DNA of 64,000 bases. Origin: a virus. The notes beneath the pieces were generated by a model. The model did no database searches. It was not told where the DNA came from and was given only the letters and a program-made list of their open reading frames with translations. Numbering within the stretch: the stretch's first letter is position 1; each line of letters opens with the position of its first letter. Below, one piece after another: positions 14,081-38,644 of the stretch. The stretch lies in the IMG/VR virus record IMGVR_UViG_3300027804_003127; one strand, 5' to 3'. The translations under genes were made by a program, and so were the position numbers.

Positions 14081-17000
14081 TGGTTGGCGGATTAACAGCT
14101 AAAATAGCTGCACTTGCATCTAAAGCTCCACCTATTGTAATAGTAAGAAAACTATTTGCTTGGGGAAACAATTTTAGTGGAGCTTTAGGTCTTGGTGATA
14201 CAATTAATAGATCATCTCCAGTTCAAGTTGGAGCTAACACTGACTGGTCAGTATTAGCTTCTGGCAATCGTTTTAGTTTAGCCATTACAACAACAGGCAC
14301 TCTTTGGTCTTGGGGTAGAAATAATTATGGTCAATTAGGTTCAGGAAATACTACATATAGATCTTCTCCTGTACAAGTAGGCGCTGGCACTGACTGGTCA
14401 AATGTATCTACTTTTTATAATCATTCGCTAGCAATCAAGACAACAGGGACTCTTTGGGCTTGGGGGGCAAATGGTAGTGGACAGTTAGGTTTAGGCAATA
14501 CTACAAGTAGATCTTCGCCTGTACAAGTAGGTACTGACACTAACTGGTCAAATTTCTCTGCTGATTATTCTCACACTTTGGCAATCAAGTCAACAGGCAC
14601 TCTTTGGTCTTGGGGTAGAAATCATTATGGTCAATTAGGTTCAGGAAATACTACAGATAGATCTTCACCTGTACAGGTAGGTACTGACACAAATTGGAGT
14701 TTAGTTTCTTGTGGCCAGCATGCTTCATTTGCAGTTAAAACTGATGGTACTCTTTGGGCTTGGGGTAGAAACAGTTATGGTCAATTAGGTTTAGGTAATA
14801 GTACAAATAGGTCTTCTCCTGTACAAGTAGGCGCTGGCACTAACTGGTCAAAAATTTCTTCTGCGACTCGTCATGCTCTTGCAGTTAAAACTGATGGTAC
14901 TCTTTGGGCTTGGGGTAGAAATAATTATGGACAGTTAGGTTTAGGCAATGCTGCAAATAGATCTTCTCCTGTACAAGTAGGCACTGACACTAACTGGTCA
15001 AAAATTTTCGGATTACAAGATACTTCTTTTGTCATTAAAACAACAGGTAGTCTTTGGGCTTGGGGGAGAAATAATTATGGTCAAATTGGAAACGGTTTTA
15101 GTATTGTTACTGCAGTCAGCTCTCCAGTTCAGATAGGGTCTGATACTAATTGGTCTTTTGCTGATGTTAGTTCTAGTGTTTTAGCAATAAAAAACACAGG
15201 TACTCTTTGGTCTTGGGGGCAAAATACTAGTGGACAGTTAGGTTTAGGCAATGCTGCAAATAGTTCTTCACCTGTACAGGTAGGTACTGACACTAACTGG
15301 TCAAAAGTTGATATAAGTAGATATCATACTCTTTCCATAAAAACTAATGGCACATTATGGTCTTGGGGGCAAAATACATATGGTCAGTTAGGTTTAGGTA
15401 ATACTACAAATAGATCTTCTCCAGTCCAAATAGGTACTGACACTAACTGGTCAAATGTATCTGCTGGTAGGCGTTTTTCTTTAGCAATAAAAACTACAGG
15501 ATCTTTGTGGGCATGGGGCTTTAATGATAATGGCTATCTTGGTGTTAATGACATTACACGTAGATCTTCGCCTGTACAAGTAGGCACTGACACTAACTGG
15601 TCTGTTGTATCTTCAGGATATAGACATTCATTAGCAGTTAAAACTAATGGAACTCTTTGGGCTTGGGGTAGAAATACTTACGGAAAATTGGGTATAGGAT
15701 CTAGTGAACTTGTTTCAGTTTCATCTCCTATTCAAGTCGGATCCAGTACGGATTGGAGTAAAGTGTTTGCAGGAGGTGTAACGGGGACTAGTTTTGGAAT
15801 CAAGACTACAGGTACATTATGGGCATGGGGCTCTGGATCAAATGGAAAGCTTGGTCTTGGAAATACTTTAGATAGAGAAAGTCCTGTCCAAATTGGTTCT
15901 AGTTCCGATTGGGCTGATATAAGTGCTGGTTATTCAACAATGGCGAGGAAGACTGGAGGTTCCATATGGGCTTGGGGAAGTAACAGCTTTGGAACTTTAG
16001 GAGTTGGAGACACTACATATAGGTCTTCCCCAGTGCAAATAGGGGCATTAACAGATTGGGCTATGGTTGTTGGAGGTAGGTTACATTCAGCCGCTATAAA
16101 AACAACAGGTACTCTTTGGACTTGGGGTGGTGCATATGATGGAGCTTTAGGCAACGGTTCTGCCACAGGTCAAAGGAATAGTCCTGTCCAGATAGGTGCG
16201 CTAAATAATTGGTCAAAAGTAGCTTGTGGATGGCAGCATTGTTTGGCAGTTAAAACTGATGGTACTCTTTGGGCTTGGGGTAGAAACAGTTATGGTCAAT
16301 TAGGTTTAGGTAATACTACAAATAGATCTTCGCCTGTACAAGTAGGCACTGACACTAACTGGTCAAATGTTTTTTGTGCACGTGTAGGCTTTAGTTGTAT
16401 GGCAATAAAAACTAATGGCACATTGTGGTCTTGGGGGAATAATAGTAGAGGACAGTTAGGCTTAGGTAATACTGTAAATAGATCTTCGCCTGTACAAGTA
16501 GGCACTGACACTAACTGGTCAAAAGTTGCTATGGGCGGAAGAGACCCGATAACGGCTGGATATCATACCGTTGCTTTAAAAACTAATGGAACTCTTTGGG
16601 CTTGGGGTAGAGGCACTTATGGTCAATTAGGTTTAGGTAATACTGCATATAGATCTTCTCCTGTACAAGTAGGTACTAGTACAAACTGGAGCGATGTCGC
16701 AGCTGGATGTCATAGTTTATTTTTAAATACAAGTGGTAATCTATTTTCTACAGGAAGTAATTCTAATGGTCAGTTAGGGGTTAGTAAAAATAATGCAATT
16801 TCGCCTGTTCAGATAGGCTCTGATACAGACTGGTCAAAAGTTGCTGCGGGATTCAATCATTCATTAGCAATCAAGACAACAGGAACTCTTTGGGCTTGGG
16901 GTAGAAATAATAGTGGTCAGTTAGGTTCAGGTAATACTACATATAGATCTTCTCCAGTACAAGTAGGTACTGACACTAATTGGCAAAAAATAAATGCTAG

Positions 17001-33122: not shown

Positions 33123-33953
33123 ATGCAATTCTTTTCTAATAAAATTTATGTAAATGGTGGTCAGAAATCTTTTCAAGATATCATTAATGATGTAAAGGGC
33201 GGTATGACAAAAACAGCTGCCAAGAAAGATGATGTTAAAAAAGAAGAAGAAGAAAAGTCTGCTACTATGCAGAAAACCACTAAGGGCGGTAAGATGCCTA
33301 AGGAAGTTTTAGAAAACTTCAAGAACAAGGGCAAGAGTAAGAGTAAGGGCGACGATGGTAAGTCAGGCGCTTCAGGAGATAACTCTTCTGGCTTAACTCC
33401 AGCTCAGAAAAAGCTACCTCCAGCATTGCGCGCAGCAATAGCCAAGAAGAAGGGCAAGAAGAGTAAGAAGAAGGCAAATGATTCAAGTTCTTATATGAAG
33501 ATAGCTTCTATTGATAAAGTAAGTGATGACGAAGTTATTCTCACTTTAGCACAGATGCATGATGAAGCTGCAATGCATGATGAGGCCGAGATGCATGATG
33601 AAGCTGCAATGCATGATGAGGCCGAGATGCATGATGAAGCTGCAATACATGATGAAGCTATGATGTCTGAATCTGGCTGGAGCGAGTCTGCTTCTGATGA
33701 AGATGAAGAGGAAGTTGTTATTGACGATTCCGATGAGGACAAAGTTGAATCAGCTGATTGCGGAAGTATGAAATCAGAAGGATGCGGCAAAATGCCTATG
33801 GCATCTTCTGATGATTCTAAGCTTGCGTCTTCTGATAAGAAATTTGTAAAGATAGCTAACTTGACTGATAAGCAAAAGTCTAACTTCCGCAAGTACTGGG
33901 AAGGTGTTTGGCCAAAAGAGTTTATTGATGCAGTTCTTTCAACTGAGAATTGA
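33123..33953 (+). CDS. Putative internal head / scaffold-like protein with basic and acidic tracts
   Basis: GGAGG RBS; MTKTAA, LTPAQKKLPPAL, MKIAS, MHDEA repeats, FVKIAN. Confidence 0.7.
   Translation: MQFFSNKIYVNGGQKSFQDIINDVKGGMTKTAAKKDDVKKEEEEKSATMQKTTKGGKMPKEVLENFKNKGKSKSKGDDGKSGASGDNSSGLTPAQKKLPPALRAAIAKKKGKKSKKKANDSSSYMKIASIDKVSDDEVILTLAQMHDEAAMHDEAEMHDEAAMHDEAEMHDEAAIHDEAMMSESGWSESASDEDEEEVVIDDSDEDKVESADCGSMKSEGCGKMPMASSDDSKLASSDKKFVKIANLTDKQKSNFRKYWEGVWPKEFIDAVLSTEN
33555..33659 (+). repeat. 18-nt coding tandem repeat (MHDEAA/MHDEAE x6, with 36-nt higher-order period)
   Basis: ATGCATGATGAAGCTGCA and ATGCATGATGAGGCCGAG alternate. Confidence 0.9.
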
Positions 33954-34555: not shown

Positions 34556-35209
34556 ATGTATAAAAATAAAAACTCTGATAAATCTAATATATTTGGAGAT
34601 AAATTAGAAGCCAATGAGCGTAAGCCTATAGAGGAATCTTTTTTAGAAGGCTTTGCTCGTAAGCAGTCAATAAGAGAAGATGTTAATAAAAAGTCAAATA
34701 TAATAAATAACAAAGTAATAAGAAGTTCTACTTTATTTGATAATGATAGTAATTCTGGAGAGATTTTTTTAGGTAAAAATTCTTCTAGATCTATATTTAA
34801 TCCAGATAGTATTTCTGCAGAGGCTCTTCCAGAATCTAGGTCTATTAAGAGTAGAGGTTTTTTACCTAACGAAAAGAAAGAAGTGAGTTCAGAGATAGCA
34901 GAAGATTTAGGTAGATTTAAAGGAAATTTTAATAATGCTTCAACTAAAGTTGGATCTCATGGAACTGTCAGAAATGATAGAATTAGTATTTTTGATGAGG
35001 TAGAATTTAGTAGAATAGATGAGCCTAAAGTTCATAAGGCAAAAACAATAGAACCAGAAGTAATAGAAGGGGTGTCTAAATTTTTATCTTCTAAAGATTT
35101 AACTAGTTCTTTGTTTGATAAATTGAATAAGCCTGAAGTTGTTCATAAAGTAACTTCTAGAGAATCGGCAATAGATAAATTATTCGGAGACAAAAATGGC
35201 AGCGTTTAA
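34556..35209 (+). CDS. Hypothetical head-region protein
   Basis: ORF in the head operon. Confidence 0.6.
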   Translation: MYKNKNSDKSNIFGDKLEANERKPIEESFLEGFARKQSIREDVNKKSNIINNKVIRSSTLFDNDSNSGEIFLGKNSSRSIFNPDSISAEALPESRSIKSRGFLPNEKKEVSSEIAEDLGRFKGNFNNASTKVGSHGTVRNDRISIFDEVEFSRIDEPKVHKAKTIEPEVIEGVSKFLSSKDLTSSLFDKLNKPEVVHKVTSRESAIDKLFGDKNGSV

Positions 35210-36200
35210 TATTAAAAAATATTCTCAAAATTATAATGCTCCAGCAGACATGGTTCCAGCGTCTGATTATGCAGATAATCAAATGTTAAACACTAGTGAA
35301 GAGCCCGAGCTTTTAATGCAGCCTTCTAGTGCAGGTAGTGATGTTGATTCTGAAATAGAAACAAGGTCTATATATGTATTTAACAACCACGATCAGATGT
35401 ATAGGAAATTGAAAGATTTTTTTTCTGAAAATGATCCAAATAGTTCATTTAAATCAGCATGGGAATATTTTGCTCCTTCTGTAAAAGACTCAGATATATC
35501 TGATAATTTCAAAAAAAACCTTATCGAATTTTATAGAATGTATGCAGAAAGTCCAGAGGGTGATGGTCCAGTAGATATGGCAGACAAATTATTTGATGAC
35601 TACAGCAAGGTTAGTCCTCCAGAAGAGCCGCAAGATGACTTAGACGAAGAGGGGCTGGATGTAGCAAAAGCTAGCACCCTAGATATTATAAAAATAGCAA
35701 AAGAAATTGCATTTAAAAATAAAAATCAAATCTTTAATTTACAAAAAGTAGCTCAACATAAGACCTTGACAGACTCTGTTATTATGAATAATTCTAATCA
35801 AGTATCTTTAAGTCCATTTACTAGAGATGTACAAAGTGGAATGCATTTAGTTGAGCAAAATAAGGGTTTTGGCTTGAAGATAGATGATATTCTTGATATT
35901 GATTTTGAAGCCATCTGGAGAGGTAATGTAATGGATAAGTATAATAGTCCATACAGAGACGATGCAGGCAATTATGTAGGTGGCTATATTAATAGACGAT
36001 TTGAGGTTAATCAAAATATTCCTGTAGGCAACAATTTACAATTGCTGCCAAATACAAGGAGAAGGCCTTGGATGCCAGAGTATAGTACGATAGAATCTAG
36101 AATGGAAGTATCCAGGGGCAATAAGGACAAGTTAAGTGACCCAGCTTCTTTTTCAAAGATTTCTATAGGTCCTTTTAACTTAAAAAAAAAGAACAAATAA
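35196..36200 (+). CDS. Putative internal head protein; ends in a slippery A-run
   Basis: FNIKKYSQ, FNLQKVAQ and FNLKKK motifs; DFEAIWRGNVMDKY segment. Confidence 0.75.
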   Translation: MAAFNIKKYSQNYNAPADMVPASDYADNQMLNTSEEPELLMQPSSAGSDVDSEIETRSIYVFNNHDQMYRKLKDFFSENDPNSSFKSAWEYFAPSVKDSDISDNFKKNLIEFYRMYAESPEGDGPVDMADKLFDDYSKVSPPEEPQDDLDEEGLDVAKASTLDIIKIAKEIAFKNKNQIFNLQKVAQHKTLTDSVIMNNSNQVSLSPFTRDVQSGMHLVEQNKGFGLKIDDILDIDFEAIWRGNVMDKYNSPYRDDAGNYVGGYINRRFEVNQNIPVGNNLQLLPNTRRRPWMPEYSTIESRMEVSRGNKDKLSDPASFSKISIGPFNLKKKNK

Positions 36201-36406
36201 TTAACAAGCAAGCGCAGTCTGCTTACGATAAGTCTTTAAATAAGGCTTTATCTTCTTTACAGCCCGATAAAGAAGATACATATTCTCATCAAATTAGGAT
36301 ATGTCCAGTATGTGGTGCCACTAACTCTGCTGATCCTTCCAAGAACAGGAATAAATGTGTGGCATGTAATGGAAATTTATACAAAGTTAAATCGACGAGG
36401 GTGTAA
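36185..36406 (+). CDS. -1 frameshift extension of 35196..36200 (71 aa, CxxC-CxxC zinc ribbon)
   Basis: A_AAA_AAG at 36185-36191. The -1 frame reads EQIINKQAQSAYDK...ICPVCGATN...KCVACNGNLYKVKSTRV* and stops at 36404-36406, 3 nt before the portal ATG. Confidence 0.7.
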   Translation, partial: KKEQIINKQAQSAYDKSLNKALSSLQPDKEDTYSHQIRICPVCGATNSADPSKNRNKCVACNGNLYKVKSTRV

Positions 36407-36409
36407 TAA

Positions 36410-38644
36410 ATGGCAAAAAAAAGTGAATCGTCATCAGCGGGCGTAGAAAAGCAAGTTGTGTCTGACTCTAGTGTATATGACAAGAAATACGCTTCTTCGT
36501 CAGCGGTTAATTTGCCCTTGACAAAAGCAGCTCAGTACGTAGGTGGTAGTGCTTCTACGATATTCACTCAGCCAATGTTTTTCTCTCCTTTGCATACGCC
36601 GCAAAACTGGCAGATCGCTAGTAAAAGAAAAGAAGTTTATCAATGGGCTAGGTTTTATTATGAAAACGAGCCCAAGGCGGCAGCTGGTATAGATTTTTAT
36701 GCTGGCTTTCCAATGAATGGATTTTCATTAGAATGCAAAGATAGAAAGATATTGACATTTTATGAACATCTAGTAGAAAAGCTGAATCTTGATTATTGGT
36801 TAAGAAAAATAAGTCATGAATATTTTCTTCTAGGAGATGTTTTTGTATTTTCAGAAATATCATGTCCTGTGTGCAACGGTATTGGCAATTTGCCAAATGG
36901 TGACATATGCAACCATCCAGACGGAACAATAAAAAGATTACTCGTATTAAATCCAGACTTTATAGAAGTTCAAAGCACTCAGCTTGCAGATGAACCTACT
37001 GTTGCCTTAATACCTGATGACGATTTAAAAAGAATAATATCTCAAAAGAAGCCACTAAATGTTTATGAAAGAATACCAAATAGTATTAAGGAATTGGTAT
37101 CTTCTGGTAGGCCAATTCCTCTTAGCCCAAGATGCGTAAGTCATTTAAGACACAAAGGCTCTCCGTATGGCACTTATGGAGAAAGCTTATTGCGTAGGTT
37201 GTTTACGATTATATCATATAAAACAAAACTCATGACGGCAAACTGGATAATGGCTGAAAGGCACATATTGCCAGTAAGAATAGCAAAAGTTGGAAGTGCT
37301 GAACGTCCTGCCTCTGAATTTGACATAGCAGATGTTCAGGGGCAATTAGCTGCGGTTGCTAACGATCCTAATTTAACTATAGTCACACACCATGCTTTTG
37401 AAATGGACTTTGTAGGAGCTACAGGAAAGATACATGACATATCTAATCAAATGGAGATGATTGGAAAAGAGATGTTAGATGGAATGATGCTTAATCAAAC
37501 TTTACTAAACGGCGAAATGCAAGGATATAGTGGAGCTGCTGTTGGTGTAGAAACTTTGATAAGAAGACTTGAGACGTGGAGGTTAGAACTTGCTGACTGG
37601 GTAGAAAAGAATGTTTTTTTACCAGTAGCTCAAATGCAAGGTTTTGTAGATGTCGCTAAAAGCAAGTTGATAAACGAAACTATTTATTTATATCCTAAAA
37701 TAAAATGGAATGATTTAAGACTTAGAGATAACAGTCAGAATTTAAATATGCTAATTCAGCTTCATGATAAAGGTTTGATATCAACTCAAAAATTATTATC
37801 AGAATTTAACATAGATTATGATCAGGAAATAAACAGACTAAGAGAAGAGCAGATTACTGCAGGCAAGGGTGGCCAAGTGTCAGGTCCTGCATCAATGGGT
37901 GAAGGAATGGGCGGAGGTATGGATTTGGGAATGGGAGGCGGCGGTATGCCTCCAGGGCTTTCTGGACCTCCAATGGACGCTGGCATGGGAGCTGCAGCTA
38001 TGCCTGCAACTCCAGAGGCTGGCGCTAGCGTTGCGCCTCCGTCAATGCCTCCAGCGCCAGCAGGCCCAGTCGCATCTTCGAATGATTTTGTTAAAACAGC
38101 GCAATTTGGATATGGTGGTCAAATTCAGCAAGCGCCAGATAAAGTATATAAAAAAGGCAAGGAGCCAAAGAAGAAAGATGACACAGGAGATGTACAGACT
38201 AAGCAAATTTTTTTAACAAAACCTGAGCAAAAATTATACAAGATTATACAAAATCTTAATTTACCATTAAGGCTCTTTGCTCAGTATGAGCAAAAAGTTC
38301 CAGGTGTGCAAAATGCATATTTGCTAGATTTTGCTTTACCAGAAATTTTATTAGATTTAGAAGCTGATGGAGATTTTTGGCATTCTGACGCAGAGTCTGT
38401 TCAGAGAGATAAAGAGAGGGATATGAAGTTGGCTTCTCTGGGTTGGACAATAGTAAGGCTAAGAGAGAGTGCTTTAAACAGTCAGGCTGATTCCGTAACT
38501 GAAATAATAAAGAACAGCATTAGAGAAGCTATTGCTAGAAGAAAGGCCATGATGACTAAAAAGGCAAATAGTCAAGAAGACACTTACGAGATAGAAGAGA
38601 TTGAAGACGATTACTCTATAATAATAAAACCTTCTAATATTTAA
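36410..38644 (+). CDS. Portal protein with Gly/Met/Pro linker and C-terminal DUF559/Vsr-like PD-(D/E)xK domain
   Basis: Lies between terminase and protease. ARFYY.NEP...GIDFY..FP, EYFLLGDVF, PYGTYG.S.L.R; C-terminal YLLDFAL...LEADGDFWH.......RDKERD..L..LGWTIVRL.E. Confidence 0.82.
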   Translation: MAKKSESSSAGVEKQVVSDSSVYDKKYASSSAVNLPLTKAAQYVGGSASTIFTQPMFFSPLHTPQNWQIASKRKEVYQWARFYYENEPKAAAGIDFYAGFPMNGFSLECKDRKILTFYEHLVEKLNLDYWLRKISHEYFLLGDVFVFSEISCPVCNGIGNLPNGDICNHPDGTIKRLLVLNPDFIEVQSTQLADEPTVALIPDDDLKRIISQKKPLNVYERIPNSIKELVSSGRPIPLSPRCVSHLRHKGSPYGTYGESLLRRLFTIISYKTKLMTANWIMAERHILPVRIAKVGSAERPASEFDIADVQGQLAAVANDPNLTIVTHHAFEMDFVGATGKIHDISNQMEMIGKEMLDGMMLNQTLLNGEMQGYSGAAVGVETLIRRLETWRLELADWVEKNVFLPVAQMQGFVDVAKSKLINETIYLYPKIKWNDLRLRDNSQNLNMLIQLHDKGLISTQKLLSEFNIDYDQEINRLREEQITAGKGGQVSGPASMGEGMGGGMDLGMGGGGMPPGLSGPPMDAGMGAAAMPATPEAGASVAPPSMPPAPAGPVASSNDFVKTAQFGYGGQIQQAPDKVYKKGKEPKKKDDTGDVQTKQIFLTKPEQKLYKIIQNLNLPLRLFAQYEQKVPGVQNAYLLDFALPEILLDLEADGDFWHSDAESVQRDKERDMKLASLGWTIVRLRESALNSQADSVTEIIKNSIREAIARRKAMMTKKANSQEDTYEIEEIEDDYSIIIKPSNI

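What the first reader, a model, noticed from the sequence alone, without database searches (positions are those of the whole stretch)
36170..36406. Apparent programmed -1 frameshift (A_AAA_AAG) adds a zinc-ribbon tail just upstream of the portal
Seen: ORF 35196..36200 ends TTA AAA AAA AAG AAC AAA TAA (A9 run, 36182-36190). The -1 frame opens only at 36179, after a TAA at 36176, and has no ATG. It encodes 71 aa containing the KQAQ motif and CPVC...CVAC, and stops at 36406, filling the gap to the portal ATG (36410). A weak SD-like AGGT lies about 14 nt upstream and a weak AAGCA/TGCTT stem lies downstream. Established: A_AAA_AAG is the dnaX-type, highly shifty bacterial heptamer, and A9 runs also allow transcriptional slippage. 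Phage frameshifts are best known in tail chaperones and capsid/tail proteins, so one in a pre-portal head protein is unusual.
Basis: partly seen in the sequence, partly recalled or inferred. Interest (0 to 1): 0.75.

Follow-up and report, generated by a model that had tools for sequence, protein, structure and literature searches.

The report
Conserved poly-A slip site, head gene
A run of nine A's at the end of the gene just before the portal gene of a huge uncultured phage is a deliberate, widely conserved frame-switch signal that makes a short protein and a longer one carrying a zinc-ribbon tail; this is a known kind of trick in an undescribed gene family.

Summary
ORF 35196..36200 ends TTA AAA AAA AAG AAC AAA TAA. 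The A9 run is the only one in 64 kb (10 expected). The -1 frame, closed by a TAA just before the run and lacking a usable start, encodes 71 aa with CPVC..CVAC and ends 3 nt before the portal ATG.

It is not an assembly error. An independent 98.9%-identical assembly and 79 of 80 related phage loci keep an A9-A11 run at this spot. Of these, 68 have the same split layout, always needing a -1 shift (+1 nt). The tail is under purifying selection (dN/dS 0.05-0.24). In 11 loci and 26 database proteins the same zinc-ribbon extension is fused in frame. The 11 fused loci still keep the run, with stops in both other frames, as in dnaX tau/gamma.

The mechanism is unresolved. I favour RNA-polymerase slippage (about 0.5) over ribosomal -1 frameshifting or sliding (about 0.33):
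- the run is never shorter than 9;
- the dnaX-type heptamer is in phase in only about 23 loci;
- 11 other in-phase A_AAA_AAG sites sit in ordinary genes of the window;
- no conserved stem or SD-like element exists.

The protein's function is unknown. This scan has noted similar poly-A slip sites in other phage gene families.

The parts
35196..36200 (+). Zero-frame ORF = short isoform (334 aa, P0001), a head-module protein of unknown function. It has a confident helical bundle at about residues 60-140 and a conserved C-terminal domain (WRGN.MDKY...GGYI.+RFEV).
   Evidence: The family has 358 clusters at 50% identity. No Pfam, PHROG, PDB or BFVD match.
36182..36190 (+). A9 run: the slip site
   Evidence: It is the only A9/T9 in the window, with 10.3 expected. 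A9-A11 is kept at the same place in 79 of 80 related loci, never shorter. Those 79 runs are 79 of the 86 runs of A9 or longer in 513 kb of related DNA.
36185..36191 (+). In-phase A_AAA_AAG heptamer (candidate ribosomal -1 site) inside the run
   Evidence: It is in phase in the window's clade and about 23 of 79 relatives; the others have A_AAA_AAA.
36176..36178 (+). TAA in the -1 frame directly before CTT-A9. It confines the frame change to the run.
   Evidence: Many relatives have a -1-frame TAA formed by T plus the first two A's of the run.
36198..36200 (+). Zero-frame stop, two codons after the run
   Evidence: In 68 split relatives the zero-frame stop lies 1-30 nt after the run.
36191..36406 (+). 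-1-frame extension: 71 codons plus a stop at 36404-36406. The long isoform is residues 1-332 plus 71, giving 403 aa (...NLKKK-EQIINK...).
   Evidence: dN/dS is 0.05-0.24 against relatives with saturated synonymous sites. No conserved start codon, and none at all in L015 and L018.
36206..36217 (+). K-Q-A-Q motif six residues after the junction (K-x-A-[SQNA]), a candidate head-protease site (inferred only)
   Evidence: A K-x-A motif lies within 12 aa before the junction in 37 of 72 unique relatives and within 25 aa after it in 21. The cleavage idea comes from earlier unverified notes.
36302..36367 (+). Zinc-ribbon-like motif CPVC-x14-CVAC
   Evidence: Pfam hits are weak and below cut-off (ADK_lid 2.8e-4, Zn_ribbon_RanBP). 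CxxC..CxxC is present in 63 of 72 unique extensions, including in-frame fused ones. The equivalent region of fused homolog P0154 is modelled at pLDDT about 90.
36410..38644 (+). Portal gene (with a C-terminal DUF559/Vsr-like nuclease domain), starting 3 nt after the extension's stop
   Evidence: A portal gene lies downstream on the same strand in 80 of 80 related loci.

Best explanation
The gene before the portal is a recoded gene that makes two proteins. Standard decoding gives a 334-aa short form ending ...NLKKKNK. A frame change inside the A9 run (36182-36190) gives a 403-aa long form, ...NLKKK-EQIINKQAQ..., carrying a 71-aa linker and zinc-ribbon tail. I put the reality of programmed recoding at about 0.9. 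The mechanism I favour, and to which the confidence of 0.5 refers, is reiterative slippage of the RNA polymerase on the T9 template tract. A fraction of late mRNAs then carry A10, which puts the tail in frame. Transcripts of the other lengths that stay out of frame with the tail end at the nearby stops and give short forms. The gene is thus a dnaX tau/gamma-like device that sets a fixed ratio of a head protein with and without its C-terminal module. Shown here: the site, its conservation, selection on the tail, and fused homologs. Inferred: which machine slips, the ratio of the two forms, and any later cutting by the head protease at the K-x-A motifs flanking the junction.
For: - Recoding is real. 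Of 80 IMG/VR loci, 68 have the split layout with an A9-A11 run, a zero-frame stop 1-30 nt later, and a 62-250-aa -1 ORF.
- An independent assembly with 98.9% identity also has A9, and all true relatives in the metagenome scan have A9.
- dN/dS of the tail is 0.05-0.24, and no conserved start codon exists.
- The same zinc-ribbon extension is in frame in 11 loci and 26 representative proteins.
- 114 of 116 short-form database proteins end within 9 aa of a KKK.
- For polymerase slippage: the run is never shorter than 9 in 79 loci, although Lys codons are only 57-67% AAA.
- The run sits in different codon phases, and the optimal heptamer A_AAA_AAG is in phase in only about 23 of 79 loci.
- A9 runs are purged elsewhere (1 against 10.3 expected; 7 off-site in 513 kb).
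- A_AAA_AAG heptamers are not purged: 75 against 42.7 expected, with 11 other in-phase sites in long ORFs.
- No conserved downstream structure: mean z -0.45 over 72 loci, RNAalifold -1.2 kcal/mol.
- Fused relatives keep the run and have stops within 0-12 codons in both other frames, the Thermus dnaX design (review PMC5009743). That review also states that bacterial slippage on runs of 9 A or T adds up to 6 nt.
Against: - No RNA data exist for this phage, so no heterogeneous transcripts have been seen.
- The window's own clade has a perfect in-phase A_AAA_AAG, the most shift-prone -1 heptamer in E. coli.
- Every run of 9 or more A's contains an in-phase A_AAA_AAA, so ribosomal slippage is possible everywhere in the family.
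- Ribosomes also slide on long poly(A) (PMC4363877), which could explain a run-length requirement as well.
- All 68 split loci need the same direction (-1 frame), which both mechanisms predict.
- Both mechanisms give the identical protein (LKKKE).
- Host and polymerase are unknown.
Confidence: 0.5

Rival explanations
1. Ribosomal recoding: the long form arises from -1 programmed frameshifting on A_AAA_AAG / A_AAA_AAA (tandem tRNA-Lys slippage), or from ribosome sliding on the poly(A) stretch, using uniform A9 mRNA.
For: An in-phase A_AAA_AAG is present in the window and its clade. The -1 frame is closed by TAA immediately before the run, and the zero frame stops two codons after it, which is the classic overlap geometry. 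All 68 split relatives need the -1 direction. A_AAA_AAG is highly shift-prone in bacteria with a single tRNA-Lys (PMC5009743). Ribosomes slide on iterated AAA codons (PMC4363877).
Against: No conserved downstream stem-loop or upstream SD-like element was found; AGGT changes to CGGT or TGGC in relatives. Most of the family has only the much less shifty A_AAA_AAA in phase. The window tolerates 11 other in-phase A_AAA_AAG in ordinary genes. The As outside the heptamer are conserved in every locus although they are synonymous-free.
Confidence: 0.33
2. DNA-level phase variation: replication slippage changes the run length in the genome, so that sub-populations of phage encode either the short (A9) or the fused (A10) gene, without recoding at RNA or protein level.
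For: Close relatives differ by exactly one A with identical flanks: L035 has A10 and is split, L036 has A11 and is fused. L083 has A10 and is fused, while L073-L084 have A9 and are split.
Against: The consensus is split in 68 of 79 loci and in 36 of 36 protein clusters of the window's clade. Two independent assemblies of the window's phage both have A9. No split locus needs the opposite (+1 frame) correction, as random length drift would produce. Strong purifying selection on a tail that most genomes could not express is hard to explain. Raw reads were not available, so minority A10 genomes cannot be excluded. This process may coexist with recoding.
Confidence: 0.07
3. No recoding: the tail is a separate small gene with an unusual start, a decaying remnant of a once-fused gene, or the split is a homopolymer sequencing error.
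For: Gene callers annotate only the short ORF. Homopolymers are error-prone on some platforms.
Against: There is no conserved ATG, GTG or TTG in the -1 ORF, and none at all in L015 and L018. dN/dS is 0.05-0.24. The same layout appears in 68 loci from many samples and in an independent assembly. Run and frame geometry are conserved while synonymous sites are saturated.
Confidence: 0.04

Closest known systems
Thermus thermophilus dnaX (tau/gamma) transcriptional slippage on an A9 run (described in PMC5009743)
   Same: There is an A9 run inside a coding region, and two products share an N-terminus. Stops lie close by in the non-productive frames. Fused relatives here (long form in the zero frame, short forms by slippage) have exactly this layout.
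   Different: In the window and in 68 of 79 related loci the layout is inverted: the zero frame gives the short form and the slip gives the long form. The gene is a phage head-module protein, not a clamp-loader subunit. No RNA evidence exists here.
E. coli dnaX -1 programmed ribosomal frameshift at A_AAA_AAG
   Same: The heptamer is identical and in phase in the window. Two isoforms differ at the C-terminus.
   Different: dnaX uses an upstream SD-like element and a downstream hairpin. Neither is conserved here. In dnaX the shift makes the short form, whereas here it makes the long form. Most of this family lacks the in-phase AAG.
Transcriptional slippage that joins two ORFs: IS-element OrfA/OrfB transposases, Shigella spa13, Citrobacter/Yersinia tssM (PMC5009743; PMC4256274)
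   Same: An A-run at the end of an upstream ORF lets slippage add a C-terminal extension encoded in another frame. A short and a long product are made in a set ratio.
   Different: The gene family and biological setting differ (phage head assembly next to the portal). Here natural fused and split versions coexist in one family, and the 11 fused loci examined at DNA level keep the run.
Phage structural-gene frameshifts: lambda gpG/gpGT tail chaperone, T7 gene 10A/10B capsid
   Same: A late structural gene yields a minor C-terminally extended form by a -1 change of frame.
   Different: Those sites are short heptamers (G_GGA_AAG, G_GUU_UUC type) with ribosomal slippage shown experimentally. This one is a homopolymer of at least 9 in a pre-portal gene with no detectable homology to them.

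Membership tests
Programmed transcriptional slippage site (bacterial type) | Homopolymeric A or T run of about 9 or more (the length of the RNA-DNA hybrid) within a coding region | tested here: met
   A9 in the window; A9 (32 loci), A10 (40) and A11 (7) in 79 of 80 relatives, never shorter. The threshold comes from PMC5009743.
Programmed transcriptional slippage site (bacterial type) | The run is conserved at nucleotide level, independent of codon phase and beyond what the protein needs | tested here: met
   Phases 0, 1 and 2 all occur. Lys codons are only 57-67% AAA, yet the run is never interrupted. Some fused homologs have lost the KKK, so poly-Lys is not needed by the protein.
Programmed transcriptional slippage site (bacterial type) | [quoted passage not shown] | not testable with these tools
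   No transcript data are available for this uncultured phage.
Programmed transcriptional slippage site (bacterial type) | An alternative-frame ORF gives a functional product, and the non-productive frames are closed nearby | tested here: met
   dN/dS of the -1 ORF is 0.05-0.24. The zero frame stops 1-30 nt after the run and the +1 ORFs are short. In fused loci both other frames stop within 0-12 codons.
dnaX-type -1 programmed ribosomal frameshift | Slippery heptamer X_XXY_YYZ in phase with the zero frame | tested here: met
   A_AAA_AAG at 36185-36191. Family-wide the in-phase heptamer is A_AAA_AAG in about 23 loci and A_AAA_AAA in the rest.
dnaX-type -1 programmed ribosomal frameshift | A downstream stimulatory stem-loop or pseudoknot a few nt after the heptamer | tested here: not met
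   The window's stem starts 15 nt after the run and has z -1.55. It is not conserved: RNAalifold gives -1.2 kcal/mol for 6 clade members, and the mean z is -0.45 over 72 loci.
dnaX-type -1 programmed ribosomal frameshift | An upstream internal Shine-Dalgarno-like stimulator | tested here: not met
   AGGT in the window becomes CGGT or TGGC in close relatives, as synonymous or conservative changes in the I-G-P codons.
Zinc ribbon | Two CxxC knuckles separated by a short beta hairpin | tested here: met
   The window has CPVC-x14-CVAC. The motif occurs in 63 of 72 unique extensions. The equivalent region of P0154 is modelled with strands at pLDDT about 90. Pfam matches are below gathering cut-offs, and metal binding was not tested.
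Phase-variable (contingency) homopolymer locus | Run-length polymorphism among otherwise near-identical genomes or reads | tested here: inconclusive
   The 98.9%-identical assembly L119 has the same A9. L035 and L036 differ by one A. Raw reads are not available.

The most novel reading that the evidence does not exclude
The slip site and the head protease form one combined design. Polymerase slippage on the A-run sets the fraction of a portal-adjacent head protein that carries a zinc-ribbon (and, in most relatives, a long C-terminal ..LAIDG) module. K-x-A-[SQ] protease sites flanking the junction then excise the poly-Lys linker, whose length varies with slippage, so that mature parts are uniform. 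A9-A11 runs, otherwise purged from these genomes, would then be a general and searchable recoding signal in head modules of phage-G-like huge phages. Phage G gp17-A9-gp18 is a second, cultivable example.
Probability: 0.2. Interest if true: 0.72.

Novelty: new member of a known kind. Interest (0 to 1): 0.55.

Why it matters
Gene callers report only the short protein for roughly four fifths of this large family. The family has 358 clusters at 50% identity and always sits next to the portal of phage-G-like, often huge, uncultured phages. The zinc-ribbon extension and the apparent 'gap' before the portal are therefore systematically mis-annotated.

The family offers a natural experiment. Split genes, fused genes with the run, and fused genes without the run coexist, which could show how recoding sites arise and are lost. 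It could also show why a head protein is needed in two forms.

The contrast between purged A9 runs and tolerated A_AAA_AAG heptamers gives a simple genomic rule for finding such sites. The similar site in cultivable phage G (gp17/gp18) makes the mechanism question testable at the bench.

Tried and rejected
- Function of the protein. Pfam and PHROGs found nothing significant for P0001. tblastn against 50,697 phage records gave no match, and blastn of the locus gave none. A profile search of PDB sequences gave nothing credible. The AlphaFold model of P0001 had mean pLDDT 63, and Foldseek against PDB had its best hit at E 0.8. The model of fused homolog P0154 had mean pLDDT 66, and Foldseek against BFVD gave no hit at E <= 0.001. 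The fold stays unassigned.
- Stimulatory RNA elements. Single-sequence folds and shuffles were run upstream and downstream of the run in 72 loci, plus RNAalifold on the clade. Nothing is conserved.
- Whole-genome search for other A9 runs. No genome is held for this window.
- tRNA-Lys content. There are no tRNA genes in the window.
- Stop-codon readthrough by a suppressor tRNA (phage G encodes one, PMC12484599). This is rejected because the tail is in the -1 frame, and the zero frame meets another TAA 13 codons after the first stop.
- Comparative support for the phage G gp17/gp18 site. tblastn found only phage G itself.
- Literature. No paper describing this site or family was found.
- Complex prediction was not used, because fused homologs already show that the parts belong to one chain.

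Full report
**Observation**

- ORF 35196..36200 (334 aa, P0001) ends TTA AAA AAA AAG AAC AAA TAA.
- The A9 run occupies 36182-36190.
- The -1 frame carries TAA at 36176-36178 and is then open to 36406.
- After a shift it reads EQIINKQAQ...CPVCGATNSADPSKNRNKCVAC...STRV (71 aa). It stops 3 nt before the portal ATG at 36410.
- The portal is confirmed by phrog_16240 (2e-44) and Pfam Portal_Mu.
- The -1 ORF has no ATG, GTG or TTG before codon 60 of 75.

The A9 run is the only A9 or T9 in 64 kb, where dinucleotide shuffles give 10.3 +/- 4.8. The heptamer AAAAAAG is common: 75 observed against 42.7 expected. Twelve copies are in phase (A_AAA_AAG) in long ORFs, so 11 sit in ordinary genes, including the 1916-aa protease polyprotein. 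What marks this site is therefore the run, not the heptamer.

**Not an artefact**

A pattern scan of metagenome contigs recovered several relevant contigs.
- The window's own contig is JACCDW010715211.1 (200,733 bp; 100% identical).
- An independent assembly, JACCDQ010936951.1, is 98.9% identical over 5,983 nt and also has A9.
- Three further relatives also have A9.
- No true relative had A8 or A10.

**Conservation**

A protein search gave 72 homologs, and nearly all end a few residues after KKK. A profile scan of IMG/VR returned 80 loci from contigs of 4.6-548 kb. All 80 have the portal gene downstream on the same strand.
- 79 of the 80 have an A9 (32 loci), A10 (40) or A11 (7) run at the end of the conserved domain. 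These account for 79 of the 86 runs of A9 or longer in 513 kb.
- 68 loci are 'split' like the window. The zero-frame stop lies 1-30 nt after the run, the -1 frame usually opens at the run itself, and a 62-250-aa -1 ORF follows.
- No split locus needs the +1 frame.

Lys codon usage is only 57-67% AAA, so an uninterrupted run in every lineage is far from neutral expectation. A full HMMER scan of 1.84 billion representatives found 358 clusters (321 at E <= 1e-10). Of the 210 proteins held, 116 end within 12 aa of the domain, and 114 of those have KKK in their last 9 residues.

**The tail is a real protein part**

Between the window and relatives, the -1 ORF has dN/dS of 0.05-0.24 while synonymous sites are near saturation (pS 0.4-0.8). 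No start codon is conserved, and L015 and L018 have none at all.

A CxxC..CxxC zinc-ribbon motif occurs in 63 of 72 unique extensions. Most distant relatives have a longer extension: linker, zinc ribbon, a disordered stretch, and a conserved C-terminal ..SC.DLAIDG or ..SADHLGL helix. The window's clade keeps only the linker and the ribbon.

Eleven loci and 26 representative proteins encode the same extension in frame with the N-terminal part. The two parts therefore form one polypeptide. In the AlphaFold model of fused P0154, the ribbon and the C-terminal helix reach pLDDT of about 90, with flexible linkers between them.

**A dnaX-like, two-way design**

The 11 fused loci still carry A10 or A11 at the junction. 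Both alternative frames stop within 0-12 codons, mostly 0-4, for example A10-GTGATCTAA.

Near relatives toggle by one A with identical flanks. L035 (A10) is split and L036 (A11) is fused. L083 (A10) is fused while L073-L084 (A9) are split. Other fused genes have the same run length as split ones but a different downstream frame, or have lost the KKK altogether.

Short and long forms therefore seem to be wanted in either layout. The poly-Lys itself is dispensable for the protein.

**Mechanism**

Several points favour RNA-polymerase slippage (one extra A in the mRNA):
- The minimum run length of 9 matches the hybrid-length threshold for bacterial slippage. PMC5009743 states that runs of 9 A or T give up to 6 extra nt.
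- The run is independent of codon phase, and A_AAA_AAG is in phase in only about 23 of 79 loci.
- The genome avoids A9 runs but not heptamers.
- No conserved downstream structure or upstream SD-like element exists.
- Stops lie in both non-productive frames.

Other points favour a ribosomal event:
- The window's clade has the perfect E. coli-type heptamer.
- Every such run contains an in-phase A_AAA_AAA.
- Ribosomes slide on long poly(A) (PMC4363877).
- All splits need the -1 direction, which both models predict.

Both routes give the same protein (LKKKE), so only RNA data or run-interrupting constructs can decide. My odds are:
- polymerase slippage, about 0.5;
- ribosomal, about 0.33;
- purely DNA-level phase variation, about 0.07;
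- no recoding, about 0.04.

**What the protein is**

Its function is unknown. No family or fold match was found.

K-x-A-[SQNA] motifs flank the junction: within 12 aa upstream in 37 of 72 unique sequences, and within 25 aa downstream in 21. In the window the motif is KQAQ at 36206-36217. Earlier unverified notes propose these are head-protease sites. If so, the variable poly-Lys linker would be removed on maturation. This is inference only.

**Comparison and novelty**

The site works like Thermus dnaX or IS-element and T3SS/T6SS slippage sites. In its heptamer it resembles E. coli dnaX, but it lacks that gene's stimulators.

I found no paper describing this family or site. The 2025 phage G multi-omics paper mentions only the tail-chaperone frameshift.

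Earlier notes of this scan report similar conserved A9-A11 or T10 slip sites in other phage gene families. One unchecked first-reader note describes an A10 plus zinc-ribbon tail in a distant member of this same family.

This is therefore a well-supported new member of a known kind of recoding. It is of moderate interest for its family-wide split/fused coexistence and its place beside the portal.

Noticed in passing
L087 9809-10183 (Bacillus phage G NC_023719, record 16327-16701): The only A9 run in 13.3 kb around the phage G portal (7.4 expected) is the last codons of gp17 (GGT TTA AAA AAA AAC TAA). The -1 frame is open from before the run through annotated gp18, just upstream of the prohead protease gp19. 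gp17 and gp18 share a repeated motif. This is a possible unannotated slip site in a cultivable phage. No relatives were found for comparison.
   Followed up: partly
window 36410-38644: The portal protein carries a C-terminal DUF559 / MTES_1575 (Vsr-like PD-(D/E)xK) nuclease domain after a Gly/Met/Pro-rich linker (Pfam 7.7e-08 and 5.7e-08). The portal core also has a CPVC..C.H insertion.
   Followed up: no
window 36174-36192 and L007-L014 equivalents: In the window's clade the 8 nt before the run (TTTAACTT, codons F-N-L) and the GA after it are invariant at synonymous positions, while codons three or more upstream vary (ATA/ATC/ATT, GGT/GGC, CCT/CCA). This suggests the selected signal is wider than the run. 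Only 5 unique sequences were compared.
   Followed up: partly
L020, L035, L036, L038, L042, L046, L048, L053, L059, L064, L066: In these relatives the best portal match (one HSP per locus) starts only at about residue 60-86 of the window's portal and lies roughly 1-2 kb beyond the end of the extension. This suggests an extra gene, or an insertion (intein or intron-like) in or before the portal N-terminus.
   Followed up: no
L032, L038, L059 extensions: A second A9 run lies inside the Lys-rich part of the long -1 extension in a few distant relatives. These are among the 7 off-site runs of A9 or longer.
   Followed up: no
L085 3001-3565: This is the one relative without an A-run. Its ORF stops at TGA inside the conserved domain (..FSTFEAR*), and open frames follow (153 codons in -1, 85 in +1). 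It may be a broken gene, a different recoding, or an assembly problem.
   Followed up: no
window 33123-33953: This acidic protein has a tandem AAMHDEAEMHDEA repeat and Lys-rich N-terminal stretches. It is one of several low-complexity ORFs upstream of the recoded gene, before the portal.
   Followed up: no
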